The notes beneath the pieces were generated by a model that was not told the origin of the DNA, made no database searches, and saw only the letters and a program-made list of their open reading frames with translations. Below are positions 1 through 56,315 of a DNA stretch of 56,431 bases, piece by piece. The stretch spans positions 1 through 56,431 of IMG/VR virus record IMGVR_UViG_3300023214_000125. One strand, written 5' to 3'. Every line of letters begins with the position of its first letter. Position 1 is the first letter of the stretch. A program made the translations under genes and the position numbers. This stretch comes from a virus. Taxonomy: Duplodnaviria; Caudoviricetes.

Positions 1-68
1 GCCCGAGCTGGTTCACACAAACGGCAGCGTCAAGGCACACGGATGACGCACCAACATTCCACCGCAAC

Positions 69-100
69 AGCGCCCGGCTTCGGTCGGGCGCTTTGTATTG
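69..100 (+). terminator. Intrinsic terminator
   Basis: AGCGCCCGGC-TTCG-GTCGGGCGCT stem with UUCG loop, followed by TTGTATTG. Confidence 0.7.
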
Positions 101-140
101 GCGAGTTTCTATCAATTTTCCAAATTCGCCAAATTGCCCC

Positions 141-169
141 TTGACATTTGTATTAAAGTGTGATACAAT
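141..169 (+). promoter_or_regulatory. Early sigma70-type promoter
   Basis: TTGACA-17bp-TACAAT with extended -10 TG. Confidence 0.85.
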
Positions 170-214
170 GTATTCAACGACGAGGAACAGTAACTGGATA
201 ACAGGAGATACAAA

Positions 215-541
215 ATGAAGCAGAACAATAGCAATCACAGAGTGGTAGAGTTCACGAATCAGGGACGCATTACACTCTATGCGACTCCAGACGTAAAAAT
301 CGATGGTTTCGAGTACCGAGGCGCAAATGCGTGGTCAGCTCAAGCTACAAGTGCCAGTGAACTTGTAAACCTAGTAAAAAGCGCAATTGAGGCAGGCTGC
401 AGCTTGAGCATACAAGAGAAATTTATTGATCAGTCGATGCAGATGTTTGGGGACGTTCCTCTAACTATTCGCAATCATCCAGGCGATGATACTGAATTCA
501 CTCACTACGACAGCATCAGCGAATACAAAGCGCAACAATAG
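215..541 (+). CDS. Hypothetical early protein
   Basis: 108 aa ORF with strong SD (ACAGGAG) directly downstream of the promoter. Confidence 0.75.
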   Translation: MKQNNSNHRVVEFTNQGRITLYATPDVKIDGFEYRGANAWSAQATSASELVNLVKSAIEAGCSLSIQEKFIDQSMQMFGDVPLTIRNHPGDDTEFTHYDSISEYKAQQ

Positions 542-603
542 CCGAAACGCCCTCCGGGGCGTCTGACCGGGGATAGTCGCCCGGCGCTGAATGAGGCAGA
601 CTG
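541..603 (+). ncRNA. Type II hammerhead ribozyme (variant core)
   Basis: GCC-GAAA-CGCCC(TCCG)GGGCG-TC^ then stem I, then CTGAATGA-GGC; loop-I AGTC (575-578) can pair with 3' GACT (599-602); predicted cleavage after C563. Confidence 0.75.
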
Positions 604-621
604 AATACAGGAGACAATCAA

Positions 622-882
622 ATGACAATTCGCAAGGGTGAAATTATTGAGTACGCACTGACCAACAGTACAGCCATTCCTCCGAAGCGAGGCACGTTGA
701 TCGTAACTGGATTTGAACGTAACGACATTTTCAATACATACAACATGAATTTCGAGTACTTGATTGAGCAGGAGGGAAGCGAGGAACAGGCTGGCGAATC
801 CTCTGTAACTGTTGAGGAAGAAAAGCCGCCCCAGAAAATCACCTGGGGGTGGTACAACGAGGAATGGACGCTAACAGGATGA
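622..882 (+). CDS. Hypothetical early protein
   Basis: 86 aa ORF, SD CAGGAG. Confidence 0.7.
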   Translation: MTIRKGEIIEYALTNSTAIPPKRGTLIVTGFERNDIFNTYNMNFEYLIEQEGSEEQAGESSVTVEEEKPPQKITWGWYNEEWTLTG

Positions 883-1151
883 CTAGCCACCCGCTAACCT
901 TCCGCCCAGACGAGGCCAACGTGCCTCGTCTGGCGGAACTAGAAAAGCGGTACAGAAACCGCACAGCCGCAGTCAACGCAGCTATCGAGCTGCTGCACCA
1001 GCGAGAGTGCACCACGCCGAGCGTGGTGCATCGAATGGCCATCGACACCAGCGTGTGCTGCCTAGCGTGCAGCGCACAAGCCGAGTGGCTGGTGTTTTAC
1101 ACTGACAACAGTTTTAGCTGGCGATGCAGTCAGCACGCCAACGAAGCGTAG
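879..1151 (+). CDS. Small putative DNA-binding protein (RHH-like N-terminus, Cys-rich C-terminus)
   Basis: ATGA overlap with upstream stop; LTFRP...NRTAAVNAAIELL resembles a ribbon-helix-helix; CxxC...CxxH. Confidence 0.55.
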   Translation: MTSHPLTFRPDEANVPRLAELEKRYRNRTAAVNAAIELLHQRECTTPSVVHRMAIDTSVCCLACSAQAEWLVFYTDNSFSWRCSQHANEA

Positions 1152-1191
1152 GCGCATCGAGCGCCACAATGCCCCCACACGGGGCGGAAAG
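1151..1191 (+). repeat. Dispersed two-hairpin CRISPR-repeat-like unit, copy 1
   Basis: GGCGC-ATCGA-GCGCC ACAAT GCCCC-CACAC-GGGGC GGAAAG. Confidence 0.85.
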
Positions 1192-1202
1192 AGGAATGAA
1201 TT

Positions 1203-1454
1203 ATGTTAGTAAAAATTGGCGAAAAAAACATTCTCAATTACTTAAATCGAGATGCGCCTGCGAACGAAATGCAACAGATTGAAGCGGAAGTGGAGCGGCT
1301 TTTGAAGCCGCTCCAAGAAGACTACGGCCCAATCACCGTCCAGATTATCCCAGGACAACATGGCATTGCCGTATGGGATGACGAGGGAAGTTTTTTGTCG
1401 TACTTAGCCCCAAATGTGCGGCGAGTACTATGGCCTGTACTCGACAGGCACTAG
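1203..1454 (+). CDS. Hypothetical early protein
   Basis: 83 aa ORF, SD GAGGA immediately after repeat 1. Confidence 0.7.
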   Translation: MLVKIGEKNILNYLNRDAPANEMQQIEAEVERLLKPLQEDYGPITVQIIPGQHGIAVWDDEGSFLSYLAPNVRRVLWPVLDRH

Positions 1455-1468
1455 CAGGGGGAGGAATT

Positions 1469-2107
1469 ATGGATAAATGGGGGCGCGTGGGGAAATACCC
1501 CATCTACGAAGAAGTCAATGACTTGGCGCACAACGTGCGCCAAGAAACGGGATACCATACCTGGTGGCACAATGGCCAGGTGTTGGCATCCCCGCAACTA
1601 TACTCCTGGCGTGAATATATTGAAGTGCTTCTGTTCCATACTGACTCCCAGTATGGAGCCAGACCGGAGCACATCGCCGTAAATCACAAGGCTCTGCACC
1701 CATGCTGTGCAGAGTATCCCGAGTACCCTCCATTCGAGGGTACTTACGGGAAACAAATTCTGATCGGCGCGAGCGAAGCCAACTACGTAGTAAGTGGTTG
1801 GCGCCCATCGCCATACGGAAACAGCAAGGAGGGGGAGCGATTGTTCGTGATCGCTCTCTTCCCTGGAGGGGGGTCGATGGAAATCGACCTCCCGAGCCTG
1901 AACAAGGCGCAGGTTCGCTGCGCCGATCGGGAGTTGCACGGGTACGGCGACTCGTCGGCCCACGGCCCGGGGGTTGGAGGCGGCTCCACCTGGTCGACCT
2001 CGTTCTCTGTCTGGCTCCCGAAAACATCTATCTCGGGGATCTTGCTCCGTCGTCTCGACCTGGACGACGGAGAGCAGCGACTAATAAATGATATATTTGC
2101 TGATTGA
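1469..2107 (+). CDS. Hypothetical protein
   Basis: Start reset to ATG 1469 behind GGAGG; 212 aa. Confidence 0.7.
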   Translation: MDKWGRVGKYPIYEEVNDLAHNVRQETGYHTWWHNGQVLASPQLYSWREYIEVLLFHTDSQYGARPEHIAVNHKALHPCCAEYPEYPPFEGTYGKQILIGASEANYVVSGWRPSPYGNSKEGERLFVIALFPGGGSMEIDLPSLNKAQVRCADRELHGYGDSSAHGPGVGGGSTWSTSFSVWLPKTSISGILLRRLDLDDGEQRLINDIFAD

Positions 2108-2123
2108 CTTGACGTTGACGCCA

Positions 2124-2165
2124 TGGCGCACCGTGCGCCACAATTGCCCCACACGGGGCGGAAAG
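2124..2165 (+). repeat. Dispersed two-hairpin CRISPR-repeat-like unit, copy 2
   Basis: TGGCGCA-CCG-TGCGCCA CAATT GCCCC-ACAC-GGGGC GGAAAG. Confidence 0.85.
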
Positions 2166-2172
2166 AGAAAAA

Positions 2173-2724
2173 ATGTACGTACTAAACTTTGGGCACTCGA
2201 TGAGCGAAGAGCAGAAGAGAGAATTACAAGAGTCCTGTGGTGCAGAGCACATGGAATATCACGAAATTGCCGTGCAAGTGGACACGTCGAAGCCACTTGC
2301 ACCACAGATACAGCGAATAGTGGCGGAGGCCACAGATGCGCTGGGCGGCAATGTCTACAACGCCGATGTGATCATCCCGCCCGGTTTCAGCATCGTGGCC
2401 GCGCACCTCGTCCACCACTTCCCGACAGCCAACCTGGCTGTCATCGCCCGAGACACAAGCTCGCCGGTCCCGGTGTACCAGGCAACCGGCGAGCTGCTAC
2501 GGCCAGTGCGCCCCAACGGAGGAACCATGTACACACTGTTTGCCCGCTCGTTGGGTGCAGAGGCACGCGCCAACGGGCAATACCATCCTGTACGCGATGA
2601 TCTCGCGGTCGACCTTACACAGGGCGACTGCGAAAGGTGGGTGGATATTCCGCAAGCACTGCGAGAAGAGATTCTCGCAGCGTGGTATGCAGGTTGGCGC
2701 GCCGAAGACCTTATCCAGTCATGA
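2173..2724 (+). CDS. Csx15-like (cOA-binding/ring-nuclease family) domain fused to a small C-terminal domain
   Basis: N-terminal LNFGHxMxxEQ, VQVDxxKPLAPQI and IIPPG motifs recall Csx15 (LNFSHPLTxEQ...QFDxxxPFAPQV...NPP); internal in-frame SD GGAGG plus ATG at 2527. Confidence 0.6.
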   Translation: MYVLNFGHSMSEEQKRELQESCGAEHMEYHEIAVQVDTSKPLAPQIQRIVAEATDALGGNVYNADVIIPPGFSIVAAHLVHHFPTANLAVIARDTSSPVPVYQATGELLRPVRPNGGTMYTLFARSLGAEARANGQYHPVRDDLAVDLTQGDCERWVDIPQALREEILAAWYAGWRAEDLIQS

Positions 2725-2768
2725 GTGACATGAGTGAGCAGAATCGCCTGGACATAACAAATTGCCCC

Positions 2769-2797
2769 TTGACATAGTTGTTATCGTGTGATATAAT
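2769..2797 (+). promoter_or_regulatory. Early sigma70-type promoter
   Basis: TTGACA-17bp-TATAAT with extended TG; shares upstream AAATTGCCCC with the promoter at 141. Confidence 0.9.
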
Positions 2798-2840
2798 ATT
2801 ATCACAGACGACAATAGATAGATAGACAAGGAGACACGAA

Positions 2841-3092
2841 ATGACACAAGGCGAGATGCGCGAGATTGCGCTAGGGGCAGCACGAAGTGAATTGCGTCAG
2901 TTCGGCATCGAGCCGAAGACCGCCGACATTTATACCGCAGAGCAGGCGCTGGACAACATCCTACGCAGCACGCCGAATGCGATAGCTGCCCGCTGGTATG
3001 AAAATGCCAGCGATAATCAGTGGGAGTTGTTTAAGAGAGAGTGGAGACGATACCAAGCTGCGAGCCGTAGAGATTCTTACAATAATGACTAG
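2841..3092 (+). CDS. Hypothetical early protein
   Basis: 83 aa ORF, SD AAGGAG. Confidence 0.75.
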   Translation: MTQGEMREIALGAARSELRQFGIEPKTADIYTAEQALDNILRSTPNAIAARWYENASDNQWELFKREWRRYQAASRRDSYNND

Positions 3093-3300
3093 ACTCGACA
3101 AACTCATCACCGTGCAGCAGGCTGTACAACTCGCAGCCTCCCACGGCGAGGACGTGCCGCCCGTCACCGTGCGATGGGCCGCACGAAAGGGGTGGATACC
3201 CAACGCCCAGAAGCTAGGACGCGACTGGGTATTCACCGACGTAGATTTTGTATCCTGGCTTCGTAATCGACCGAAGCCGGGACCGAAGCCGAGCAAATAA
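3085..3300 (+). CDS. Excisionase/MerR-like (HTH_17-type) DNA-binding protein
   Basis: LITVQQAVQL...TVRWAARKGWIPNAQKLGRDWVF pattern. Confidence 0.75.
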   Translation: MTRLDKLITVQQAVQLAASHGEDVPPVTVRWAARKGWIPNAQKLGRDWVFTDVDFVSWLRNRPKPGPKPSK

Positions 3301-3301
3301 C

Positions 3302-3342
3302 TGGCGCATCGAGCGCCACAGTGCCCCGAACGGGGCGGAAAG
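3302..3342 (+). repeat. Dispersed two-hairpin CRISPR-repeat-like unit, copy 3
   Basis: TGGCGC-ATCGA-GCGCCA CAGT GCCCCG-AA-CGGGGC GGAAAG. Confidence 0.85.
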
Positions 3343-3353
3343 AGAGATGTGTT

Positions 3354-3659
3354 ATGTACACTCTTGAGTTTGGAGAAACCCCGTTGGGGCCTAATATCAT
3401 CTGGAACGAGGACGAGGACCGCTATGGCAGACTGTCAGGTGTGTATACCACACCTGACGGCAAGACATTTCCCGTATATTGCCGCGCCACCAACTGGGGC
3501 GGCAATGAAAGCGAATGGGAATGGCGTGTGGCTGGCATTACGATTCGCAGTTTGGACCGCCATGGGCGGCGGTTCGACGAGACGGAACTACAGGAATTTC
3601 GTACCCGTGTTAGAGAAGAAATTTCAAAAAATGATGTTGACAAGGGTGACGCAGCGTGA
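3354..3659 (+). CDS. Hypothetical early protein
   Basis: ATG 3354 after repeat 3; 101 aa. Confidence 0.65.
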   Translation: MYTLEFGETPLGPNIIWNEDEDRYGRLSGVYTTPDGKTFPVYCRATNWGGNESEWEWRVAGITIRSLDRHGRRFDETELQEFRTRVREEISKNDVDKGDAA

Positions 3660-3704
3660 TGTGTATCTGAGCACACACACATTGCCCCGACACGGGGCGG
3701 AAAG
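3660..3704 (+). repeat. Dispersed CRISPR-repeat-like unit, copy 4 (first hairpin divergent)
   Basis: ...CACATT GCCCCG-ACA-CGGGGC GGAAAG. Confidence 0.8.
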
Positions 3705-3713
3705 AAGGACACC

Positions 3714-3926
3714 ATTAAGCGGGAATTTGATATCGACCAGTTGCGACTGGTCGATGACGAAATCAACGGCTTGTCAATCTGCCGGACCGACACCGGTATG
3801 CGTAGACACATACCAGACGGATATCGGTGGATGCATACCATCCAGCCGTGGATTGGCGTGGTGTCGAATCCACTGGTGCATTTACCATTGCACGAATGCC
3901 TGAGATGGTGGAGGAATTTAGGTTAG
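3714..3926 (+). CDS. Hypothetical protein, possible ATT start
   Basis: In-frame ATT at 3714 lies just after GAAGGA; the ORF track starts at TTG 3741. Confidence 0.45.
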   Translation: MKREFDIDQLRLVDDEINGLSICRTDTGMRRHIPDGYRWMHTIQPWIGVVSNPLVHLPLHECLRWWRNLG

Positions 3927-3953
3927 CGTTCGCTGTGTAGTGGGACTACACAC

Positions 3954-4026
3954 AGCCCGGCCATCACACGATGCGCCGGGCTTTTCTTTTCTCGCGTAGG
4001 AGTCAACTCCTACGCGGTTTTTTGTT
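3954..4026 (+). terminator. Tandem intrinsic terminators at the early/late convergence
   Basis: AGCCCGGC...GCCGGGCT-TTTCTTTT and CGCGTAGGAGT-CA-ACTCCTACGCG-GTTTTTT. Confidence 0.8.
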
Positions 4027-4028
4027 GC

Positions 4029-4934
4029 CTACTGCACGGGCACCCACGGCAGCCACCAGCGCCACACCCTCACCGGCGGCACCGTGGCCGTACCCCCACG
4101 CACCGCGGCCCACGCGTCGATGCGCCCATGCCCAAACTCCACATCATACCCCGGCGCGCCCAAATCCACCGCGCTGCCCACGATAATCCGCGCCACATCC
4201 GCCGCGTCATGACCCTGGCTCAGCAGCAAACCCGCCAGGCCCGCCACGTGCGCAGCTGCGATACTGGAGCCACTTGCAAATGTGTAGCCTGGCCGCGCAT
4301 GGTGCGCGGCCTTGATGGATTCACCGGGCGCGCTGATGTCTACGTGCGCGCCCACATTACTCAACACGTATTGCTCATCCTGCTTGGTGGTTGCGCTCAC
4401 ACCAAGCACGCCAGGGTAGCACGCGGGGCAGATGACGGCATCGGTCCCACTGCTGCCGGCCGCGGCCACCAGAAACACGCCGTGCTCCTGCGCGTAGACG
4501 ATGGTGTCGTGTAAGTTTCCTGACGGCTGACTGTCGCCGAGGGCGTACAAAATTACATCCGCACCATTGCTGGTGGCCCACACTGTTGCATCCGCGATAC
4601 GTTGCCATCCGCCCGCCGTCGGCGTCTCCGCTAGCGCCTTGAGCGGCATGATGGAGCATTCGGGGCATACGCCGACGGTCGCGCCCGCTGCGACGGACGC
4701 CACCCGCGTCCCGTGCCCGTGGTCGTCCGCCGGCTCAGTGTCGTTGTGCACAAAATCGTATCCAGGTACGATGCCGTTCGGGAATTCCTCATGCTCGGCG
4801 TAGATGCCGGAATCAATGATAGCAATCACGACATCCGATGAGCCGCGCGTGATGGTCCACGCTTCCGGTGCGCGGATGAGGTCCAGGTTCCACGGGATGA
4901 CGGCGAATAGAAGCGTTATCAGCAGATGCGTCAT
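4029..4934 (-). CDS. Subtilisin-like S8 serine protease, probably exported
   Basis: IAIIDSG, HGHGT and SGSSIAAAHVAG catalytic-triad motifs; hydrophobic N-terminus. Confidence 0.9.
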   Translation of the reverse strand: MTHLLITLLFAVIPWNLDLIRAPEAWTITRGSSDVVIAIIDSGIYAEHEEFPNGIVPGYDFVHNDTEPADDHGHGTRVASVAAGATVGVCPECSIMPLKALAETPTAGGWQRIADATVWATSNGADVILYALGDSQPSGNLHDTIVYAQEHGVFLVAAAGSSGTDAVICPACYPGVLGVSATTKQDEQYVLSNVGAHVDISAPGESIKAAHHARPGYTFASGSSIAAAHVAGLAGLLLSQGHDAADVARIIVGSAVDLGAPGYDVEFGHGRIDAWAAVRGGTATVPPVRVWRWWLPWVPVQ

Positions 4935-16764: not shown

Positions 16765-17065
16765 CGTTCACCTCCTGTAGGCGCGACCGGTAAATAGCCT
16801 GCGCCGTGCTGCGCTCATCCTGCGCCATCGCCGCGCGCAATGTTTCCGCATCGGTCACGCTTGGCGTAAGCTTGCGCAGTTGATAGATGGTGGCATCCAG
16901 CAGGATGGCGACAGTTAGCTCATTGCTATCCTCCTCTGCTACTACACGCACGTACCGTTGGCGCACCATGCGGTCCAGACGTCGCGCGTCCACGAAGTCA
17001 GCGCGTGTGAGCAGCGTCCCTACCGGCATTCCAGCGGCCTCTTTAACTACCTCGTAGGTCGCCAT
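16754..17065 (-). CDS. Hypothetical protein after major capsid
   Basis: 103 aa, tightly coupled to neighbours. Confidence 0.6.
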   Translation of the reverse strand: MATYEVVKEAAGMPVGTLLTRADFVDARRLDRMVRQRYVRVVAEEDSNELTVAILLDATIYQLRKLTPSVTDAETLRAAMAQDERSTAQAIYRSRLQEVNDGK

Positions 17066-17066
17066 C

Positions 17067-18026
17067 TTAGCTCACCGCACCACTGAAGAAGTAGCCGAGA
17101 TCGCTCGCCACAATTTTGTTATCGAACGCGATTTCACCCTCGATGCGTTCGGCCTTGAGGTGGGCCATCTCGAACCGGCTGAGGCCGACCTGTGCGCCTA
17201 GGCCCCCGCTCACGCCTTCCCACTCGAAAATGTATCCCGCGGATGGAGCCAGCAGGCCAGGCGTCGGGTTGACATAACCGAGCCATGCGTGTTTTCCATG
17301 TGTAAACGAATAGGCCGCCGTCTCGCCTTCGGTGTTGGTGGCCTTGATGGCTTTGGCGACGTACACATTTTCGAGGTCGAAAAAAGCAGCCATCATCTGT
17401 TCCGTGATGTTCTCGGGACTCGTATATTTGAACCGGTCCACCAGGTCGGGGTGGTACTTCAATTTGCGAAATGTCTGGTAGCCAAGCACTAACGTATTGG
17501 GCAGAAACCCGGTGGTCGATAGCACCGTCTCCTTGCCGGTTTCAATGTTGTCGATTGGGTCGCTGGTAGCGTAGGTGCTCCAATAGGTGAAATCCGTGTC
17601 GCCCACCACGTCGGTACCCCACACCCCAGTGGTAAATGCATCACTCACCCACTGAACTTCCTGTCGCAGCAACATGCGTTGTGTGACAAATTGCGTTGCC
17701 TCGTTGTCAAGGTTCAGTGGATTGTCCGCATTGGCGCGAGTTTGATAACCGATGTCCTTGTGAAATGCCCACACGTCGCAACTGTACGACGCGGTGCTTA
17801 GTCCATAGCCACTGCCGGCCGACTCAGTAGCATCTGGGCGGCGTTGCGCTTCATCACGAAACCAGTCGTTTTTGGTATATGTGAAATATTTGTCAGATTG
17901 TTTCACCACCGGCACGTTCGGAAAAACGCGGTTGGCGATAAAGTGGTCCTGCATCTGGATATAGGCGACACTAATGTTGGTCAAAATCGAATCAACATGC
18001 ACGTCGCTCCGTGTTGGCTGTGCCAT
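17067..18026 (-). CDS. Major capsid protein (lambda gpE-like HK97 fold)
   Basis: VDSILTNISVAY, FIANRVFPNVPV, PNTLVLG and GYFFSGAV motifs. Confidence 0.9.
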   Translation of the reverse strand: MAQPTRSDVHVDSILTNISVAYIQMQDHFIANRVFPNVPVVKQSDKYFTYTKNDWFRDEAQRRPDATESAGSGYGLSTASYSCDVWAFHKDIGYQTRANADNPLNLDNEATQFVTQRMLLRQEVQWVSDAFTTGVWGTDVVGDTDFTYWSTYATSDPIDNIETGKETVLSTTGFLPNTLVLGYQTFRKLKYHPDLVDRFKYTSPENITEQMMAAFFDLENVYVAKAIKATNTEGETAAYSFTHGKHAWLGYVNPTPGLLAPSAGYIFEWEGVSGGLGAQVGLSRFEMAHLKAERIEGEIAFDNKIVASDLGYFFSGAVS

Positions 18027-18041: not shown

Positions 18042-18437
18042 CTACGCCGCGCGCGCCGGGGCGGCGCAGTTGACAACCGCCGTAGCAATCCCGCCGGCAG
18101 CCCCGTTGCCATTAAGCACCTGACCGGCAATATAGACCGTTGTTTCAGTGCCCACCGTCACAGCTTGGGCCTGCCCATCGGCACTCGTACCAATGATATT
18201 ACCGTAATCCAAATCCTCGTCGCCGCTGACCTTGGTTACTCCGATGCAAACAATCTCGGCCTCCTCACCGGATTCCGGCTTGTTCTGCAATACGCCCACC
18301 GGCACGTCTGTGACAGCAGCACAAAAAGTAACTGTTTTTTCGCCGCTCATTTTCACGAAGTAATACTGTTTCGCGCTCAAGTCAGCCGAAGCAGTCAGAC
18401 CGGTCAACTTTAAGCAACATGGTCCTTCCCATGCCAT
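18042..18437 (-). CDS. Capsid decoration/cement protein
   Basis: 131 aa upstream of the capsid gene; GVLQNKP motif. Confidence 0.75.
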   Translation of the reverse strand: MAWEGPCCLKLTGLTASADLSAKQYYFVKMSGEKTVTFCAAVTDVPVGVLQNKPESGEEAEIVCIGVTKVSGDEDLDYGNIIGTSADGQAQAVTVGTETTVYIAGQVLNGNGAAGGIATAVVNCAAPARAA

Positions 18438-36336: not shown

Positions 36337-36570
36337 TCATGATTCCCCTCTTCTCGAGATGATCTCGATTTGCACGCCAACGCAATCTCGAACGTCCGCG
36401 CCGCTTTTTAGCGTAGCGACGCATTCCGGCGTGTCGAGACAAATGCAATCGCCAGTATCCTCGACTTCAATCTCTGCAGTTCCGCTGCGGCCATGCAGCA
36501 CTATGATTTGCTTGTACTGGCCTATAGGAATAATCTCAATTTCCACTCTGTCCACGCTTCTCTCCTTCAT
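36337..36570 (-). CDS. Hypothetical protein, paralog A
   Basis: Nearly identical core to 37846..38055. Confidence 0.65.
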   Translation of the reverse strand: MKERSVDRVEIEIIPIGQYKQIIVLHGRSGTAEIEVEDTGDCICLDTPECVATLKSGADVRDCVGVQIEIISRRGES

Positions 36571-37856: not shown

Positions 37857-38055
37857 GATTCCTCGAGATGATCTCGATCTGCACACCAACGCAATCTCGA
37901 ACGTCCGCGCCGCTAGCGAGCGTAGCGATGCAGTCCGGCGTATCGAGACAAATGCAATCGCCAGTATCCTCGACTTCAATCTTCACAGTTCCGCTGCGGC
38001 CATGCAGCACTATGATTTGCTTGTCATCTCTGATAGGTATCACTTCAATCTTCAT
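37846..38055 (-). CDS. Hypothetical protein, paralog B
   Basis: Paralog of 36337..36570. Confidence 0.65.
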   Translation of the reverse strand: MKIEVIPIRDDKQIIVLHGRSGTVKIEVEDTGDCICLDTPDCIATLASGADVRDCVGVQIEIISRNHGQ

Positions 38056-44849: not shown

Positions 44850-45743
44850 ATGATATTCCGCACCGTCAAAGACAAAAACAATCCATACACTCGGCTTGGC
44901 CATGCTACCATCAACGATGAACGCCTTAGCTACAAAGCTATCGGGATACACACCTACCTGATGAGCAAGCCAGACGACTGGCAGGCAAACGAGGCCGACA
45001 TCACAGCGCGCCACAGCGAAGGCAAATCGGCGGTGCGGAGCGGCGTACAAGAACTTATACAGTACGGATACATGGCGCGTGTCCAGTTGCGCAAGGATAA
45101 GAAAATTGTCGGGTGGAGACTCGACGTGTACGAATCGCCAGAAGTAAACCCGCATTACGATCTAGAATCGCCAGTTGATTACGTGGTCATTGACCTAGAT
45201 TCCGATAACAAGAATGTAGCTGACCTAGATTCCGATAAGCAAGATGTAGATAACCTAAATCTAGATAACCGGAATGTAGGTGCGCAGCCAGAGGATGAGC
45301 AGTCGAGTACAGACCTAGATTCCGATTACCTAGATTTAGATAAGCAAGATGTAGGAAATCGGAACCATAGTAAAGATCCAATAGAAGTAACAAATAACAA
45401 CAACAAAGAGGGTGGTGGTGGTCGTCGCGCAGCCGATGCCGCATATGGTACCCTGTGCAAAGCAGTTGAGAACGAAATAGGGTTACTATCCCCGATGGCT
45501 GCTGAAAAGCTGGGGGCGTTGGCGGACGAACACCCGCACGATTGGATACTTGATGCGCTGCGCATTGCGGTCAATCAAAACAAAAGAAGTTTGGCATACG
45601 TTGAAGGCATCTTGACCCGATGGAAGGCTGAAGGTCGGGACAGCCCGAAACCACAACGACGAGCCGGGCCGGTCGATTCCGTTGCCGATGCCAGTTGGGA
45701 CAAGCTATTCGCAAATTCACCACATTTACAGGACAGGAGCTAA
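44850..45743 (+). CDS. Replication initiator (N-terminal HTH, C-terminal DnaD-like domain)
   Basis: LSYKAIG...YLMSKPDDW N-terminus; SLAYVEGILTRW C-terminus; internal iterons. Confidence 0.85.
   Translation: MIFRTVKDKNNPYTRLGHATINDERLSYKAIGIHTYLMSKPDDWQANEADITARHSEGKSAVRSGVQELIQYGYMARVQLRKDKKIVGWRLDVYESPEVNPHYDLESPVDYVVIDLDSDNKNVADLDSDKQDVDNLNLDNRNVGAQPEDEQSSTDLDSDYLDLDKQDVGNRNHSKDPIEVTNNNNKEGGGGRRAADAAYGTLCKAVENEIGLLSPMAAEKLGALADEHPHDWILDALRIAVNQNKRSLAYVEGILTRWKAEGRDSPKPQRRAGPVDSVADASWDKLFANSPHLQDRS
45191..45410 (+). repeat. Iteron-like repeats; probable replication origin
   Basis: GACCTAGATTCCGAT at 45192, 45222 and 45312 plus AAGATGTAG variants on a 15-bp period, then an A-rich tract. Confidence 0.7.
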
Positions 45744-47455: not shown

Positions 47456-48307
47456 ATGATTCCTGTTACACACGCACTCTACAGAGCCGCCGGACGCCCA
47501 CCTATTGACGGCGACAATCCCGGCATGTGCCGTGTCTGCGGACACGAAGGCCAGCAGGGGCAGCCATTCGACAGGTGGGTGAAACCAACATTTACCGACC
47601 ACGACAAGCTATATCCAGGCACCATTGTTTGCCAGGCGTGCCTATTTTCGTTTGAGGAGCGCAGTGAGCAGCTAGCGCAAATTGTTGGTAAGGGGAAGCC
47701 GCAGCGAATGCGCAACTATTCGCATTTTGTAGCGGATGGCGTTTGGTTGCCACTATCCAAAGGCGACAAGCCTGCTATGTTGGATGCGCTACGCAAGCAC
47801 CCCGATGTGGCCGTTATCGCCACGTCGGGACAGAAGCATGTCATTTTTCGTGCCCAGCCCGGCATGTGGCAATTGGAGGAAAGCGCCATTGCGCCTGATA
47901 TGGTAATGCTAGAGAAGCTGTTGGGGTACGTCGAGGAACTGTATTTTATATTCAGCAAGGAGGAAATTTATACAGGACGATACCGCCAAAATCGCATTCG
48001 AGATTTTGGCGTTGTCGAATTTTTAACAATTGAGAATCAGCTAAAAACGCATCGTGGTTCAGCCATGTTTGAGCTAGCGATATTTCTGAGCCAGAAAGGC
48101 GATAAAGATGAACGACTATCCAGAGGAGTATCATCAAGCATTAAAGATGCTGATTCCGCTGTGGCGCGGAATCAGCGGGGACTACAAGCAAAAGTACGTC
48201 CGCAATATCTGGGACCAGTTCGAAAACCAGATACGGGCGGCGGCGTACACAAGCAGTGTGAGCAAGTTTATCAGCAGTCTTTGTTCCCGCCTGCAGATAC
48301 AGATTAG
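47456..48307 (+). CDS. csf1: Type IV CRISPR large subunit Csf1 (Cas8-like)
   Basis: CRVCG...FTDHD...CQAC Zn finger, SGQKHV motif; first gene of the csf cluster. Confidence 0.75.
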   Translation: MIPVTHALYRAAGRPPIDGDNPGMCRVCGHEGQQGQPFDRWVKPTFTDHDKLYPGTIVCQACLFSFEERSEQLAQIVGKGKPQRMRNYSHFVADGVWLPLSKGDKPAMLDALRKHPDVAVIATSGQKHVIFRAQPGMWQLEESAIAPDMVMLEKLLGYVEELYFIFSKEEIYTGRYRQNRIRDFGVVEFLTIENQLKTHRGSAMFELAIFLSQKGDKDERLSRGVSSSIKDADSAVARNQRGLQAKVRPQYLGPVRKPDTGGGVHKQCEQVYQQSLFPPADTD

Positions 48308-48509
48308 TTCAGACGATGTGTCCGACACGTTATCTGCACTCAACGCGTCCGACGAGCGTAAGCTACTGCGACAGTTGCGTGACGAAGCGCCCACGCTTGT
48401 TCTCATAGTCCGCCTCGAGAACGACAAGCGGAAGGCAGCGTGGGAGAAAAAACAGGAACTGGCGGGCACCATGTTCGATTCAAACGACAATCCATTCCAG
48501 GAGAAATGA
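48108..48509 (+). CDS. cas11: Small subunit Cas11-like
   Basis: 133 aa all-helical protein between csf1 and csf2, as in type IV-B. Confidence 0.65.
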   Translation: MNDYPEEYHQALKMLIPLWRGISGDYKQKYVRNIWDQFENQIRAAAYTSSVSKFISSLCSRLQIQISSDDVSDTLSALNASDERKLLRQLRDEAPTLVLIVRLENDKRKAAWEKKQELAGTMFDSNDNPFQEK

Positions 48510-48512
48510 ACA

Positions 48513-49490
48513 ATGCGAACAGTTGAATTTACCGGCCTCGTCACGGCGCTATCGTCCATTTTTCACGGTGGCGGCCAGTCGTTTGGGGTGAGCAGCAAGT
48601 TGCGCCGGGAGAAGTTCGTGCAGCCCGATGGCAGCGTGGAGGAGGTGCCCGTCATTTCGGGCAATGGCATTCGCGGCTTGTTGCGCGACCGGGGCATGGC
48701 GCACATGTGTCGCACCCTGGGTTATGGCGAACCGGGCGAAGACGGAAAGCCGCAGGGGTTATCGCTGCCGGCTTTTCATTTTTTGTTCAGCGGTGGCGCA
48801 CTGACAAAAACGTCGGGACGCGGACTGGACATTGATCGGGCACGAGAATTGCGGGAACTCATCCCGCTCGTGGGCGTGTTCGGCGGGGCCATGGGCAATC
48901 AGATTATGCCCGGCAAACTCAAGGTGGATAAGATGATGCCCGTCTGCGCCGAGACTGCGCATTTGCTGCCCGAATCGTGCGTGAATGGCTACCAGCCCGA
49001 CTCGATTTGGGAATATCTCCAAGAGGAGATGTACACGCGCAAGGACGATGAAAAGGACGAACACAAACGCACACTGATTGACAGCGATGTGCGCAAATTG
49101 CTGGAAGCTGAGGCTCGCAGTAAGCGCGACGCAACGTCGCAACCCGTCGTGCAGGATAACACCGGGCAGAACCAGCAGATGATGTACTACGTGGAGACGC
49201 TGGCCGCTGGCACTCGATTTTACTGGAGTATTATTCTGGAGGATGTCAGCGACATTGAGTTCGATGCGTTCGCCACATGTCTAGTCGAGTTTTCCCGATT
49301 TCCCTATGTGGGCGCCAAGTCAAATGTAGGCTTGGGCAAGATTAGTATCAAATTCGACAACTGGCACACCATCGACAGCCGCGTTAGCGCCGGCGGCGCA
49401 GCCGTGGATATGCCGGTGGGGCGCAGTTACCAAAGCCACCTCAACGAGCGTGCGGATGAGATTCGGGAGCTACTGGGAGGCATCCAATGA
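48513..49490 (+). CDS. csf2: Type IV Cas7-like backbone Csf2
   Basis: ALSSIFHG, VPVISGNGIRGLLRD, LFSGG, QMMYYVETLAAGT and VGAKSNVGLG RAMP motifs. Confidence 0.88.
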   Translation: MRTVEFTGLVTALSSIFHGGGQSFGVSSKLRREKFVQPDGSVEEVPVISGNGIRGLLRDRGMAHMCRTLGYGEPGEDGKPQGLSLPAFHFLFSGGALTKTSGRGLDIDRARELRELIPLVGVFGGAMGNQIMPGKLKVDKMMPVCAETAHLLPESCVNGYQPDSIWEYLQEEMYTRKDDEKDEHKRTLIDSDVRKLLEAEARSKRDATSQPVVQDNTGQNQQMMYYVETLAAGTRFYWSIILEDVSDIEFDAFATCLVEFSRFPYVGAKSNVGLGKISIKFDNWHTIDSRVSAGGAAVDMPVGRSYQSHLNERADEIRELLGGIQ

Positions 49491-50134
49491 TGGCGTTGAC
49501 TGCCTTGCCTTGGGTGCATAAGGACAAGGCGAAGACCAGCTACGAAGGCGGACTGTACGCCGCTATGGACGTGATTTCGTCTGGTAATGCCGCGCTGGCC
49601 CAGCAGATCCACGATAGCAAGCGACCGTCCCCGTTTAGCGCAGTGCTGTCGAATGGCACATTGCGCGTTGGTACGCTTGATACTGATATTTTTTTGGCCA
49701 TTGCAAATAGCTCGTTTGCGCACAAGGCCGAGCGTTTATCTGCTGACTCATTTGAATCGCTGATAGACGATGCGCCCGATACGCAGCGCATCAAATTGAC
49801 GTTCGAGACGCCGCTAGCGCTCGGGTCGTTTGGTGTCGACACAGCCTTCCCTGATGCACGTTGGTTGTTTGGCAGCCTGTTGCATCGCTGGCAGTCGGCA
49901 GGTGGCCCGCTCATCCCCGATCTGCAATACGGGGATGTGTGTTGCTACTGCGCAAGGCTACGCATGACGAAAGTGATTATGAGTAAATACGCGCAACGTG
50001 CGTGGAAGGGATATATGGGCATCATTGTGCCGCAGGACATGGCGAAATGGTATCATGTCCTTCTGCGATTTGCGCGGTACAGTGGCGTGGGACGCAAGAC
50101 AACGCATGGACTGGGACAGGTGCGCTATGAATGA
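49487..50134 (+). CDS. cas6: Cas6-family endoribonuclease
   Basis: IHD...PFS, LTFETP, LFGSLLHRW and C-terminal G-loop YSGVGRKTTHGLGQ. Confidence 0.85.
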   Translation: MMALTALPWVHKDKAKTSYEGGLYAAMDVISSGNAALAQQIHDSKRPSPFSAVLSNGTLRVGTLDTDIFLAIANSSFAHKAERLSADSFESLIDDAPDTQRIKLTFETPLALGSFGVDTAFPDARWLFGSLLHRWQSAGGPLIPDLQYGDVCCYCARLRMTKVIMSKYAQRAWKGYMGIIVPQDMAKWYHVLLRFARYSGVGRKTTHGLGQVRYE

Positions 50135-50879
50135 AACCGAGCATCTCAATGCGACACTGCATGCTCGCACCGGTCGGTTCAAGCGCAAAGTCGCAGAATC
50201 ACTGCGTATTGTGGAAGATGCTTTGTCTACTATGAATGCACCCTACATTGCGCTGAGTGGTGGCAAGGACAGCACGTGCGTGCTGCACTTGGTGCGCCTC
50301 TGTTCCCCGGATGTGCCCGGCGTGTGGAGTGATGACGAGTGGAATCTGCCTGAAACGATTGACTATATTGACCAGGTAGACAATGTACACCGTATCGCCG
50401 CCCGTGTCGAGCATTCCGAATGGTTCACCAGTTGGGACACCAAGTATCCTGAATTGCCCGAGGGGACCGCTTGGCTCGACACGCCCAACAACGACGGGCT
50501 GCAGGCATTTGCGCGCCGGCAGCAGTATGACGGCGTATTTATCGGATTGCGAGCGAAGGAGAATTCTCTCCGACATATTCACTTGCGCAAATTCGGAACA
50601 CTCTATTTTGCACAGAAGCATGGCGTCTGGCAATGCAACCCAATTGCCTGGTGGTCGGTGCAGGACGTGTGGGCGTACATCGTGTCAAACGATGTGCCCT
50701 ACAACGCTGCATATGACAGACTGTCTGAAATTGGTGTGGCGCTAGAGTATCAGCGTATTGGGCCCTTGTCGCAGGCTCGTGCGTTGGGGTATGGGCAATT
50801 GCAGATTCTAAAACGTGGCTGGCCCGAACTATTTAATCAGTTCGCCAATAAATACCCGGAGGCGCGCAGCTATGTATGA
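50127..50879 (+). CDS. cysH: CysH-like PAPS reductase family protein
   Basis: ALSGGKDS PP-loop, GLRAKE and PIAWWSVQDVW...YNAAYD motifs. Confidence 0.88.
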   Translation: MNETEHLNATLHARTGRFKRKVAESLRIVEDALSTMNAPYIALSGGKDSTCVLHLVRLCSPDVPGVWSDDEWNLPETIDYIDQVDNVHRIAARVEHSEWFTSWDTKYPELPEGTAWLDTPNNDGLQAFARRQQYDGVFIGLRAKENSLRHIHLRKFGTLYFAQKHGVWQCNPIAWWSVQDVWAYIVSNDVPYNAAYDRLSEIGVALEYQRIGPLSQARALGYGQLQILKRGWPELFNQFANKYPEARSYV

Positions 50880-51510
50880 GCCTCTCAAAATCACCGCCTA
50901 TCCCCGCTGCGGTATTATTGCTGACGCCTATTTGCCCATCGACGGCATCCTCTTTTACGCCGCCATGCGTCAATTGCATGGCCCGCAAATGCTGTCCACG
51001 CCTGGACACGTGCCTGACATTGAGTACCCCACATTGCCGCTGGGGATACGTGAAGAGCATGGCGAGTGGTTTTACGCAGCTTCATTTGCCCAGTGGGATG
51101 CCTATGCGGACGGACAGGAGCACTGGAACAAACGGTTTGACATGGCGCAATCGGATCTGATTGATTTTGCCGGTCGACGCGGGCGCGTTATTGTTGAGCA
51201 GGCGCGCTATAAAAGTTACCACATGCCTATGTTCTATCGTCATGCACTGAGTGTGTCCTGGTACGTGGTCGGTGATCGGGCAGGGGTTAGCGACCTGTTA
51301 TCTACCATGACGCACATCGGCAAAAAGGCTGCCCAAGGATGGGGGCGCATCAACGAATGGGAGGTGAATCAAGTTGGTAAGGACTGGTCAACGTATGATG
51401 ATGACGGTAATTTGATGCGTAGTATACCCGCTGCGCAGGGTATTGTGTATGGCATTCGGCCTAGCTACTGGTTGCGCGAGAACCAAGTCACATGTCAAAT
51501 GCCAGACTGA
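50872..51510 (+). CDS. csf3: Type IV Cas5-like Csf3
   Basis: PLKITA, IDGIL, LPL, YKSY, HIGKKAAQGWG and RPSYW motifs. Confidence 0.85.
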   Translation: MYEPLKITAYPRCGIIADAYLPIDGILFYAAMRQLHGPQMLSTPGHVPDIEYPTLPLGIREEHGEWFYAASFAQWDAYADGQEHWNKRFDMAQSDLIDFAGRRGRVIVEQARYKSYHMPMFYRHALSVSWYVVGDRAGVSDLLSTMTHIGKKAAQGWGRINEWEVNQVGKDWSTYDDDGNLMRSIPAAQGIVYGIRPSYWLRENQVTCQMPD

Positions 51511-55585: not shown

Positions 55586-55639
55586 GGGAGTTGAAACCTA
55601 CGTTTACCCTACGCCCGCCCTACGGTAGGTAGTACCCTA

Positions 55640-55668
55640 TTGACAAAGGTAGCTATCTATGATATACT
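55640..55668 (+). promoter_or_regulatory. Early sigma70-type promoter
   Basis: TTGACA-17bp-TATACT with extended TG. Confidence 0.85.
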
Positions 55669-55716
55669 ATAGATACAGAGGCGAAACAGTAAATAGACAA
55701 AACAGGAGATACAAAA

Positions 55717-55884
55717 ATGAAACACCACATTAATTTTTACCTTAGCGAAGAGTTGTCTTGTGATGATGAGGGCAGTATTGTAATGCTGTGTGATGAATGT
55801 GTGGGGGACTACACCAGGGAAGAAGTACCATTTTGGGGGAGCGGGGACGAGGAATGCACATGCGAAATCTGCGGTAAAAAGTAG
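55717..55884 (+). CDS. 55-aa acidic Zn-binding protein (not in ORF track)
   Basis: SD ACAGGAG; MKHHINFY...CDEC...CEICGKK*. Confidence 0.7.
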   Translation: MKHHINFYLSEELSCDDEGSIVMLCDECVGDYTREEVPFWGSGDEECTCEICGKK

Positions 55885-55889
55885 ATAGA

Positions 55890-55917
55890 CGACCTGGGCA
55901 AGTCGCTAAAAGGCCCA
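55890..55917 (+). ncRNA. H-type pseudoknot motif, copy 1
   Basis: CGAC-CTGGGCAA-GTCG-CTAAAAG-GCCCA. Confidence 0.55.
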
Positions 55918-55988
55918 TATCTAGAGCACAGCCGAACGGCTGGCCCGACGGTGACGGATTCACCGCTAGCCTTCAGGAGGCTTTCCTC

Positions 55989-56309: not shown

Positions 56310-56315
56310 ATTGAG

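What the first reader, a model, noticed from the sequence alone, without database searches (positions are those of the whole stretch)
1151..3704. Four solitary CRISPR-repeat-like units punctuating early genes: candidate substrates for the phage's array-less Cas6/type IV-B complex
Seen: at 1151, 2124, 3302 and 3660 a unit (hairpin)-CAxT(T)-GCCCC-loop-GGGGC-GGAAAG sits just after a stop codon and just before the next RBS. Loops vary while stems are kept, which points to RNA-level selection. Established: Cas6 cuts at the 3' base of repeat hairpins; many type I/III repeats end CCCC..GGGG-NNGGAAAC/G; type IV Csf5 leaves a 7-nt tag; phage solitary repeats can act as RNA anti-CRISPRs (Racrs). Inference: cutting after GGGG leaves a 7-nt CGGAAAG tag on each downstream mRNA. 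The phage Cas6/Csf complex could thus process or silence its own early mRNAs, or the units could decoy host Cas proteins. Either would give a concrete RNA ligand for an enigmatic type IV-B system.
Basis: partly seen in the sequence, partly recalled or inferred. Interest (0 to 1): 0.9.

Follow-up and report, generated by a model that had tools for sequence, protein, structure and literature searches.

The report
Repeated two-hairpin spacers between phage early genes
Four copies of a small two-hairpin RNA element sit between the early genes of a phage, next to a self-cutting ribozyme doing the same job in another gap; they most likely cut and insulate the early messages, and the phage's own Cas6 enzyme is a plausible but unproven cutter.

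Summary
Four units (1151-1191, 2125-2165, 3303-3342, 3656-3704, + strand) share one design: hairpin 1, ACAAU-like linker, GCCCC-loop-GGGGC, GGAAAG, then a start codon 7-12 nt on. The core pattern occurs 4 times against 0.00 expected.

New context:
- A hammerhead type II ribozyme (540-605) fills the first gap of the same operon.
- Variant genomes in four metagenome runs diverge exactly at the units.
- The phage does encode csf1-cas11-csf2-cas6-cysH-csf3.

For the Cas6 reading: one relative with the same operon (L279) carries a real CRISPR array of hairpin+GGAUUG repeats. The closest solved Cas6 enzymes bind a stem of four C-G pairs (PMC3902920).

Against it:
- A model of the L279 repeat does not find the units, and no Rfam family does.
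- A complete Cas6-bearing relative, G017, has neither array nor units.
- Hairpin-GGAAAG-start-codon cassettes occur in six virus records without Cas6.

Verdict: cis-acting intercistronic RNA processing/insulator cassettes that also act as recombination linkers (0.6). Cas6 as the cutter is about 0.3 overall, and an RNA anti-CRISPR decoy about 0.07.

The parts
1151..1191 (+). Unit U1: hairpin 1 (1151-1165), linker ACAAT (1166-1170), hairpin 2 GCCCC-CACAC-GGGGC (1171-1185), tail GGAAAG (1186-1191). The next gene starts at ATG 1203.
2125..2165 (+). Unit U2: hairpin 1 (2125-2139), linker ACAATT (2140-2145), hairpin 2 GCCCC-ACAC-GGGGC (2146-2159), tail GGAAAG (2160-2165). The next gene starts at ATG 2173.
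   Evidence: a variant contig diverges at 2170
3303..3342 (+). Unit U3: hairpin 1 (3303-3317), linker ACAGT (3318-3322), hairpin 2 GCCCC-GAAC-GGGGC (3323-3336), tail GGAAAG (3337-3342). The next gene starts at ATG 3354.
   Evidence: variant contigs diverge at 3323 and 3330
3656..3704 (+). Unit U4: hairpin 1 with a different, compensating stem (3656-3678), linker (3679-3683), hairpin 2 GCCCC-GACAC-GGGGC (3684-3698), tail GGAAAG (3699-3704). The next gene probably starts at ATT 3717.
   Evidence: variant contigs diverge at 3660 and 3680. The ATT start is my inference.
540..605 (+). Hammerhead type II ribozyme in the first intercistronic gap of the same operon, between stop 541 and ATG 622. It holds the same position as the units.
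   Evidence: Rfam RF02276, 45.7 bits against a gathering score of 37, E 3e-6; a variant contig diverges just past it (place 590)
130..169 (+). Early promoter P1: TTGACA, 17 nt, TACAAT with TG. It is preceded by AAATTGCCCC.
2758..2797 (+). Early promoter P2: TTGACA, 17 nt, TATAAT with TG. It is preceded by the same AAATTGCCCC.
3992..4027 (+). Terminator-like hairpin with a T run that closes the early operon.
47456..48307 (+). csf1 (Cas8-like)
   Evidence: TIGR03114, E 8e-7, below the curated cut-off; 43% identical to the L279 copy
48108..48509 (+). cas11-like small subunit; the start is uncertain and the frame overlaps csf1
   Evidence: 63% identical to the L279 copy and conserved in 13 of 13 type IV-B viral loci. 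The name rests on its position in the operon, which is my inference.
48513..49490 (+). csf2 (Cas7)
   Evidence: TIGR03115 E 4e-19, PF03787
49487..50134 (+). cas6, the candidate cutter of the units
   Evidence: PF10040, 51.8 bits against a cut-off of 25; a family of about 20 close relatives with invariant His42 and a glycine-rich loop; closest solved structures are T. thermophilus Cas6A/B
50055..50879 (+). cysH-like gene (PAPS reductase fold), the hallmark of type IV-B
   Evidence: PF01507 E 1e-19
50872..51510 (+). csf3 (Cas5)
   Evidence: TIGR03116 E 4e-14

Best explanation
The units are cis-acting RNA cassettes that divide the phage's two early polycistronic messages into separate working parts.

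- Hairpin 1 sits on or just after the stop codon and caps the 3' end of the upstream cistron.
- Hairpin 2 with its fixed GGAAAG tail forms a defined, structured 5' edge right at the ribosome site of the downstream cistron.
- The transcript is cut within or beside the unit. Each cistron then gets its own stability, and its ribosome site is shielded from upstream sequence.

The hammerhead ribozyme in the first gap does the same job by cutting itself. It too leaves a hairpin on each side of the cut, just before a ribosome site.

Because the same about 45 nt recurs between unrelated small genes, the units also serve as homology linkers. Early genes are swapped at them between related phages.

**Shown:** the anatomy, its position, the compensating change in hairpin 1, the ribozyme, and divergence of variants at the units.

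**Inferred:** that cutting happens, and by what. Given this role, I put the cutter at roughly 45% the phage's own Cas6 (cut at the 3' base of hairpin 2, leaving (C)GGAAAG on the downstream message). I put roughly 45% on a host single-strand endonuclease of the RNase E kind cutting the ACAAU(U) linker, and about 10% on no cut at all.
For: **Real and non-random.** There are 4 units against 0.00 expected. All lie in stop-to-start gaps of one 3.9 kb early region driven by two near-consensus sigma-70 promoters and closed by a terminator.

**RNA-level constraint.** Hairpin 1 is GGCGC/GCGCC in U1-U3 but a GU/AC-rich stem in U4 that still pairs.

**Equivalent position to a ribozyme.** A hammerhead II (45.7 bits) lies in the one early gap that is long enough but has no unit.

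**The tail belongs to the unit.** It is not the phage's general ribosome site: 4 of 22 GGAAAG copies are hairpin-linked and precede start codons, and these are the units.

**The cassette type occurs elsewhere.** Hairpin directly followed by GGAAAG, then 8-11 nt, then a start codon, recurs in clusters of 3-5 same-strand copies with differing stems in G001, G002/G016, G013, G014 and G015. With a strict 4-GC-pair rule the counts are window 4 against 0.07, G001 3 against 0.23 and G002 5 against 0.27 in shuffles.

**Linker role.** Of 14 loose contig ends listed over 4100 nt, 7 fall in or at the edge of the four units (1191, 1197, 2170, 3323, 3330, 3660, 3680) and 1 at the ribozyme (590). The same foreign gene follows U2 in run X1 and U1 in run X3. 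The same foreign upstream sequence precedes hairpin 2 of U3 (X1) and of U4 (X2). One joint puts a unit after the last early gene.

**Cargo.** The early genes themselves are orphans: 0 of 10 have a Pfam hit above cut-off, and none of the 12 early proteins searched (one of them mis-translated in the script) has a relative in any held locus. This fits swappable cargo.
Against: - No transcript ends could be seen: no RNA run holds this sequence, so cutting is pure inference.
- The fold z-scores are modest, -1.0 to -2.3.
- Hairpin 2's stem never varies among the four units. A plain stability hairpin has no need of that, and it points rather to a sequence-reading protein such as Cas6, or simply to gene conversion between copies.
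- The other phages with hairpin-GGAAAG cassettes were found because I searched for that pattern. Their number says little about how special the tail is.
- No hammerhead was found in the five of those records I scanned.
- The contigs come from one study and are assembled. A break at a repeat can be an assembly effect, although no two units in the window share 31 identical bases.
Confidence: 0.6

Rival explanations
1. This is the first reader's main idea, and it can nest inside the best explanation as the identity of the cutter. The units are single CRISPR-type repeats cognate to the phage's own Cas6. Cas6 cuts at the 3' base of hairpin 2, stays on the upstream fragment, and leaves a 6-7 nt (C)GGAAAG handle on each downstream message. 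The Csf1/Cas11/Csf2/Csf3 complex can then assemble on that handle over the ribosome site. The result would be timed silencing of early genes, or simply the natural RNA ligand of this type IV-B variant.
For: - Cas6 sits inside the csf operon, with an invariant His42 and glycine-rich loop across 20 family members.
- No array is in the 56.4 kb held.
- L279 has the same operon (Csf2 76%, Csf3 60%, Cas6 44% identical). About 4.3 kb downstream on the same strand it carries an array of five well-conserved 29-nt repeats flanked by a degenerate copy at each end.
- L279 also has one further upstream hairpin. The stems differ (CACCC/GGGUG, GCCCC/GGGGC, CCCGUG/CACGGG) but the 6-nt tail GGAUUG is kept. That is the same architecture as the units, whose tail is GGAAAG.
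- The first L279 repeat matches GCCCC..GGGGCGGA outright. The pattern is expected 0.04 times in that locus, and 8 of 200 shuffles had a match.
- The closest solved enzymes, T. thermophilus Cas6A/B (E 1.6e-23), bind a stem-loop of four C-G pairs directly 5' of the cut and read the lower C-G pairs by sequence (PMC3902920, passages). Hairpin 2 holds four C-G pairs and is invariant in sequence.
- 0 of 10 capsid relatives have the motif above chance, Cas6 or Csf2, so relatives show no dissociation.
Against: - The covariance model of the L279 repeat gave 23 hits at E<=10 in the window, none at a unit.
- No Rfam CRISPR repeat family matched at E<=10.
- G017 is complete at 60.4 kb and has csf1-cas11-csf2-cysH-cas6-csf3, but no array and no dispersed intergenic repeat.
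- Cassettes of the same form exist in 6 virus records with no PF10040 Cas6, three of them 100% complete. No Csf2 was found in the 2 of those tested.
- Hairpin 1 has no role under this reading.
- The missing 22% of the genome may hold a normal array.
Confidence: 0.3
2. The units are RNA anti-CRISPR decoys (solitary repeat units, Racr). They mimic the CRISPR repeat of a host system and soak up host Cas6/Cas7 early in infection.
For: - Solitary repeat units in phage intergenic regions are known, and one is proven to block type I-F (PMC10651486, abstract and passages).
- The units are made early and in four copies.
- The neighbouring gene 3085-3300 is a small helix-turn-helix protein (HTH_17, E 6e-4, below cut-off), as is often seen beside anti-CRISPR genes. 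That association is recalled.
- In G001 the same kind of unit lies about 100 nt from a type I-F-like solitary repeat that Rfam calls CRISPR-DR4.
Against: - No match to any described CRISPR repeat family.
- The host and its repeats are unknown.
- The bacterial arrays that contain GGGGCGGAAAG are mostly unrelated. The best one, Polyangium L241, is probably read on the other strand, because its uniform repeats lie on the right and its decayed ones on the left.
- A decoy does not need to sit at a fixed 7-12 nt from a start codon in every copy, nor to follow a stop codon.
Confidence: 0.07
3. The units act only as DNA: recombination linkers or protein-binding sites, with no RNA function. The hairpins would then be incidental or form as DNA cruciforms.
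For: - Variant genomes diverge at the units.
- ATTGCCCC of the linker/hairpin 2 junction also lies directly upstream of the -35 box of both early promoters. 5 of the 7 window matches to AWTGCCCC lie in the early 3.7 kb, all on the + strand.
Against: - All four units have one orientation, the sense strand.
- Their distance to the start codon is fixed and hairpin 1 has a compensating change. All three point to RNA.
- AWTGCCCC as such is not enriched: 7 against 4.48 expected, and 17 of 100 shuffles reach 7.
Confidence: 0.05
4. The units are a new small self-cleaving ribozyme, a sister solution to the hammerhead in gap 1.
For: - They hold the same position as a true ribozyme.
- The unpaired stretches ACAAU and GGAAAG are conserved.
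Against: - No Rfam ribozyme family matched at E<=10.
- The loops vary freely, so no loop-based tertiary contact is conserved.
- Only about 11 unpaired conserved bases remain, which is very little for a catalytic core.
Confidence: 0.03

Closest known systems
CRISPR repeats cut by Cas6 (T. thermophilus Cas6A/B type; type IV-A Cas6/Csf5)
   Same: - A short G-C stem-loop is followed directly by a short conserved single-stranded tail.
- A Cas6 gene of the Cas6A/B-like family is in the same genome.
- The solved relatives bind a stem-loop of four C-G pairs just 5' of the cut (PMC3902920, passages).
   Different: - The units are not in an array. They are 361-1178 nt apart, and the 'spacers' are protein-coding genes.
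- An extra upstream hairpin is present.
- The tail is 6-7 nt and abuts a ribosome site.
- No match to Rfam repeat families or to the repeat model of the nearest relative.
Solitary repeat units / RNA anti-CRISPRs (Racr)
   Same: Single repeat-like hairpins in phage intergenic DNA that are transcribed early (PMC10651486, PMC11656645, passages).
   Different: - Here the phage itself carries cas genes.
- The units sit inside an operon at fixed distance from start codons rather than as small RNAs behind their own promoter.
- No likeness to a known host repeat could be shown.
PeSL mobile regulatory cassettes of T4-type phages
   Same: A repeated intergenic motif containing a stem-loop flanks small variable early genes and marks the borders of insertions and replacements between close relatives (PMC2839356 and PMC4122927, titles and abstracts as listed; compare).
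   Different: - PeSLs are promoter-plus-terminator composites.
- The units hold no promoter match worth noting and no U tract. They end in a ribosome-site-linked tail.
RNase III sites between T7 early genes, and T4 RegB cutting GGAG in early ribosome sites
   Same: Phage early polycistronic messages are cut at repeated intercistronic signals. RegB is a phage-encoded nuclease that inactivates early messages at their ribosome sites (PMC1702504, abstract). The T7 case is recalled.
   Different: - RNase III needs roughly two turns of duplex, while these stems are 5-8 pairs.
- RegB has no hairpin requirement and is unrelated to Cas6.
Synthetic insulators: a Csy4 (Cas6f) hairpin or the RiboJ hammerhead placed before a ribosome site (recalled, no call)
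   Same: The layout is the same: gene, then a cleavable hairpin or ribozyme, then the ribosome site and the next gene. This operon holds natural look-alikes of both devices.
   Different: Those are engineered parts. Whether the natural units are cut at all is untested.

Membership tests
CRISPR repeat / Cas6 substrate | Short stem-loop directly 5' of the cut, followed by a conserved tail that becomes the 5' handle | tested here: met
   GCCCC-loop-GGGGC plus an invariant GGAAAG in 4 of 4 units. The feature is defined from PMC3902920 and PMC5965381 passages.
CRISPR repeat / Cas6 substrate | Repeats in a regular array with short spacers of a few tens of nt | tested here: not met
   Spacing is 974, 1178 and 361 nt, with genes in between. 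No array was found in the window by TRF or the repeat finder.
CRISPR repeat / Cas6 substrate | Match to a described CRISPR repeat family | tested here: not met
   cmscan of 1-4100 at E<=10 gave 5 hits, none at a unit. The same library does recognise a repeat in G001.
CRISPR repeat / Cas6 substrate | Match to the repeats used by the closest homologous Cas6/Csf system | tested here: not met
   Model R1 of the L279 repeats, with filters off, gave 23 hits at E<=10, none at a unit. Only the architecture and the first L279 repeat are alike.
CRISPR repeat / Cas6 substrate | A cognate Cas6 with catalytic residues in the same genome | tested here: met
   PF10040 at 51.8 bits; invariant His42 and glycine-rich loop; Cas6A/B are the closest solved structures.
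CRISPR repeat / Cas6 substrate | Binding and cutting by that Cas6 | not testable with these tools
   No RNA-protein tool is on hand, and no RNA run holds the sequence.
Solitary repeat unit / Racr | Likeness in sequence and fold to the host's CRISPR repeat | tested here: inconclusive
   The host is unknown and no Rfam repeat family matched. Arrays containing GGGGCGGAAAG exist in diverse bacteria, but the best one is probably read on the other strand.
Solitary repeat unit / Racr | Stand-alone small RNA behind its own promoter, not linked to cas genes | tested here: not met
   The units lie inside operons, about 500-1000 nt or more from P1/P2, and the phage has cas genes.
PeSL-type mobile regulatory cassette | Repeated intergenic motif at the borders of gene replacements between close relatives | tested here: met
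   7 of 14 listed loose contig ends lie at the units, and the same foreign gene follows two different units. All runs belong to one study and are assembled contigs.
PeSL-type mobile regulatory cassette | Composite of an early promoter and a terminator stem-loop | tested here: not met
   The only promoter-like hit at a unit scores 9 of 12 (2115-2144), and no + strand terminator-like site lies at a unit.
Known self-cleaving ribozymes | Match to a ribozyme covariance model | tested here: not met
   Only the hammerhead at 540-605 matched. Nothing matched at the units at E<=10.
Type IV-B CRISPR-Cas (the gene cluster beside the finding) | csf1, cas11, csf2, csf3 plus cysH-like; no Cas6 and no array (PMC8175902, PMC11656645, PMC12669027 passages) | tested here: not met
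   The core genes and cysH are present, but a Cas6 is inserted. The relative L279 has an array. 13 of 13 other viral loci with a related Csf2 lack Cas6. This is a Cas6-bearing variant of IV-B.

The most novel reading that the evidence does not exclude
A phage type IV-B system that has captured a Cas6 uses its own early operon as the 'array'. Single repeats are embedded between early genes, so the early polycistronic message is the pre-crRNA. Cas6 cutting tags every downstream message with a (C)GGAAAG handle, and the Csf filament then assembles over the ribosome site. That would shut early genes off on schedule, and it would give the long-sought natural RNA ligand of type IV-B. The same repeats would double as linkers for shuffling early genes, in effect a CRISPR array whose spacers are genes.
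Probability: 0.25. Interest if true: 0.85.

Novelty: new variant of a known kind. Interest (0 to 1): 0.6.

Why it matters
Reviews say that type IV-B systems lack both an array and a processing enzyme. They also say the source of their RNA component is the key open question (PMC8175902, PMC11656645, passages).

This window, with L279 and G017, shows a Cas6-bearing variant of type IV-B in phages. One member has a true array. This one has four repeat-like units in a highly transcribed early operon. That gives a concrete RNA and a concrete enzyme to put together at the bench.

Apart from CRISPR, the operon is a natural counterpart of engineered 'insulator' designs. A self-cutting hammerhead sits in one gap and hairpin cassettes in four others, each just before a ribosome site.

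The metagenome variants also suggest that such cassettes are where phages exchange early genes.

If the units prove to be ordinary stability hairpins cut by a host RNase, the finding is a tidy example of a known theme and no more.

Tried and rejected
**Rejected readings**
- Known RNA families: none matched at the units.
- Intrinsic terminators: no U tract.
- RNase III sites: the stems are too short.
- Lambda-type nut/boxB sites: the loops vary, and four copies per 3.7 kb do not fit. This is my reasoning from recalled knowledge.
- N4-type promoter hairpins: no giant polymerase is in the window, and loop size and sequence vary. This too rests on recalled knowledge.
- GGAAAG as the phage's general ribosome site: rejected for this phage. 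It is complementary, with one G-U pair, to the 3'-terminal CUUUCU of many 16S rRNAs. That is recalled and untested, and it remains a possible reason why the tail recurs in other phages.

**Searches for relatives and context**
- Relatives by capsid (49 loci; the 10 longest records searched): no motif above chance, no Cas6, no Csf2. This is uninformative beyond showing no dissociation.
- Cas6 relatives in IMG/VR with single proteins: none. With an alignment: one, L293. In JGI metagenomes: one, L279.
- Polyangium-type arrays as a precedent for a GGAAAG tail: rejected on the likely orientation.
- The shared 5' flank CACAATTG between the window and G001: only 3 stretches in IMG/VR, two of them terminator-like singles. 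It is not a wider motif.
- L279 spacers: no informative match in phage records or held loci.
- Early proteins: no relatives in held loci.

**Other notes**
- RNA evidence: no RNA holder listed.
- I did not run structure prediction, complex prediction, the protein atlas or the count of structure pairs. The MAFFT alignment A5 misaligns hairpin 2 of U2 and hairpin 1 of U4, so pair counts on it would mislead.
- Supplementary files of the Racr and VIPR papers were not seen. The candidate lists there might already include units of this kind.

Full report
**What is there**

The window is a linear IMG/VR virus record of 56,431 bases, estimated 78% complete. Its first 4 kb is an early region on the + strand.
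- Two near-consensus sigma-70 promoters lie at 141-169 and 2769-2797. Both have an extended -10 and the same AAATTGCCCC just upstream.
- Ten small genes follow, then a terminator at 3992-4017.

Each unit reads: hairpin 1, a 5-6 nt linker (ACAAU, ACAAUU, ACAGU, ACAUU), hairpin 2 (GCCCC, a 4-5 nt loop, GGGGC), GGAAAG, a purine-rich stretch, and a start codon 7-12 nt after the tail.

The core pattern occurs 4 times against 0.00 expected. The repeat finder recovers the four as one family.

Hairpin 2 and the tail are identical in all four units and the loops differ. Hairpin 1 is GGCGC/GCGCC in three units and a GU/AC-rich stem in the fourth that still pairs.

*A ribozyme in the same operon.* Rfam finds a hammerhead type II ribozyme at 540-605 (45.7 bits, gathering score 37). 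It lies exactly in the first gap, after stop 541 and before the ribosome site of the gene at 622. After self-cutting it would leave a hairpin at the 3' end of the upstream piece and a hairpin at the 5' end of the downstream piece, just before the ribosome site. The units have the same hairpin-gap-hairpin-ribosome-site layout. This is the main reason I read them as processing and insulating elements.

*The tail is not this phage's usual ribosome site.* Of 22 GGAAAG copies on both strands, only the four units combine a directly abutting G-C hairpin with a following start codon. The other early genes I read use AGGAGA-type ribosome sites.

*Variants diverge at the units.* Four DNA metagenome runs of one study hold this phage or close variants as assembled contigs.
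- Of 14 listed places where a contig runs on into unlike sequence, 7 lie in or at the edge of the four units and 1 just past the ribozyme.
- The same foreign gene start follows U2 in one run and U1 in another.
- The same foreign upstream sequence precedes hairpin 2 of U3 in one run and of U4 in another.
- One joint places a unit after the last early gene.

The units cover about 5% of the stretch, so this is far from even. Related phages thus carry different early genes between the same units. All runs are one study, and contigs can break at repeats, although no two units here share 31 identical bases.

*The early proteins are orphans*.

**The cas genes**

Reviews describe type IV-B as lacking Cas6 and an array (PMC8175902, PMC11656645, PMC12669027, passages).

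Among viral contigs with a related Csf2, 13 of 13 have the standard cluster without Cas6. A full HMMER search finds about 20 close relatives of this small Cas6, with an invariant histidine and the glycine-rich loop.

I could reach the surroundings of only two:
- **L279**, a 14.5 kb metagenome contig, has the same operon and a CRISPR array about 4.3 kb downstream on the same strand. The array holds five well-conserved 29-nt repeats flanked by a degenerate copy at each end, with a period of 61-63 nt and spacers more AT-rich than the contig. One further upstream hairpin is also present. The stems differ among these copies but the tail GGAUUG is kept.
- **G017**, a complete 60.4 kb phage, has the operon with cysH and cas6 in swapped order. 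It has no array and no dispersed intergenic repeat.

The variant is therefore not array-less by nature, and the window's missing 22% could hold an array.

**Are the units the Cas6 substrate?**

*For:*
- The design, a stem-loop then a 6-nt tail beginning GGA and ending G, is that of the L279 repeats.
- The first L279 repeat even matches GCCCC..GGGGCGGA (expected 0.04 per locus).
- The closest solved enzymes, T. thermophilus Cas6A and Cas6B, bind a stem-loop of four C-G pairs right before the cut and read the lower pairs by sequence (PMC3902920, passages). Hairpin 2 holds four C-G pairs and never varies.

*Against:*
- A covariance model built from the L279 repeats does not find the units (23 hits at E<=10, none at a unit).
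- Rfam's CRISPR repeat families do not match, though the library does pick up a type I-F-like repeat in another phage.
- G017 shows that a phage can keep this Cas6 with no substrate of its own.
- Hairpin 1 has no part in a Cas6 model.
- The same cassette form occurs in clusters in six other virus records with no Cas6: G001, G002, G013, G014, G015 and G016. Three of these are rated 100% complete. In several of them the stems vary freely.

One caution on that last point: I found those phages by searching for the pattern, so they show that the cassette works without a phage Cas6, not how common it is.

**Weighing**

I hold with 0.6 that the units are cis-acting RNA cassettes that cut up and insulate the early messages and double as recombination linkers. 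Within that, the cutter is open, with the phage Cas6 and a host single-strand nuclease acting on the linker about equally likely. The other readings are:
- Decoy (Racr): about 0.07. It is weakened by the fixed distance to start codons and by the lack of any repeat match.
- DNA-only role: about 0.05.
- New ribozyme: about 0.03.

**Comparison with known systems**

The units work like the RNase III sites of T7 early RNA (recalled) and like engineered Csy4 or RiboJ insulators (recalled). They behave in populations like the PeSL cassettes of T4-type phages (PMC2839356, PMC4122927, abstracts). They look like single Cas6-type repeats. They fail defining tests for each of these families (see Membership tests), so I file them as a new variant of a known kind.

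**Limits**

- No transcript data exist for this phage, and the host is unknown.
- Only two relatives of the Cas6 operon could be inspected.
- Supplementary tables of the cited papers were not seen.

Noticed in passing
window 540-605 (+): A hammerhead type II ribozyme lies between the first two early genes (45.7 bits). The core reads CUGAAUGAG, with one extra base relative to the model. A variant contig keeps it while the downstream gene differs.
   Followed up: partly
window 47456-51510 (+); L279 300-5020 and 9137-9700; L293 7283-11259: A Cas6-bearing variant of the type IV-B cluster occurs in phages. One relative (L279) has a true CRISPR array with 29-nt repeats and AT-richer spacers. Reviews describe IV-B as lacking both Cas6 and an array.
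   Followed up: partly
G017 (record of L293), reverse strand coordinates 16789-17005 and 18153-18227; ORF 17026-17634: Tracts of 4-15 five-base GGY+NN repeats lie behind a strong promoter, flanking a 202-aa ORF with a RAMP-like glycine-rich C-terminus. All of this sits directly upstream of csf1. It looks like the VIPR system of bioRxiv 10.64898/2026.04.26.720920 (abstract and passages read), here next to type IV-B. L280 has a weak homolog (27% identity). The window has none.
   Followed up: partly
L042 5830-5900 (= L125 8216-8240, record G001): Two type I-F-like solitary CRISPR repeats lie about 15-20 nt apart in the early region of a complete 75.5 kb phage with no cas genes found. Rfam calls one of them CRISPR-DR4 (36 bits). 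They are candidate RNA anti-CRISPRs, about 100 nt from a GGAAAG unit.
   Followed up: partly
L281 936-1195: A four-repeat mini-array (37-nt repeat, period 73-74 nt) lies just before a gene start in a 72.6 kb phage contig. That contig carries a standard Cas6-less type IV-B cluster 9 kb away.
   Followed up: no
window 130-147 and 2758-2775: Both early promoters share 18 identical bases, CAAATTGCCCCTTGACAT. The ATTGCCCC part recurs at the linker/hairpin 2 junction of three of the four units. This is unexplained.
   Followed up: partly
window 55600-56431: A third early-type promoter and further small genes lie at the right end. The ribosome site plus start TAACAGGAGATACAAAATGAA is identical at 199-219 and 56372-56392. 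A different intergenic hairpin pair lies at 55887-55917 and 56314-56344. The early region clearly continues into the missing part.
   Followed up: no
window 51701-54802 (+): A class II (B12-dependent) ribonucleotide reductase is interrupted by an intein with a LAGLIDADG homing endonuclease.
   Followed up: no
window 45192-45380: 15-nt-period repeats (GACCTAGATTCCGATAA-like, 6 or more copies) lie inside the DnaD-domain gene next to the DnaB helicase. They look like origin iterons.
   Followed up: no
window 36353-36545 and 37862-38054: A 193-nt direct repeat at 88% identity, with copies 1.5 kb apart.
   Followed up: no
L124 15754-16187 (record G001): The phage carries a tmRNA gene (95 bits) with a tRNA next to it.
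   Followed up: no
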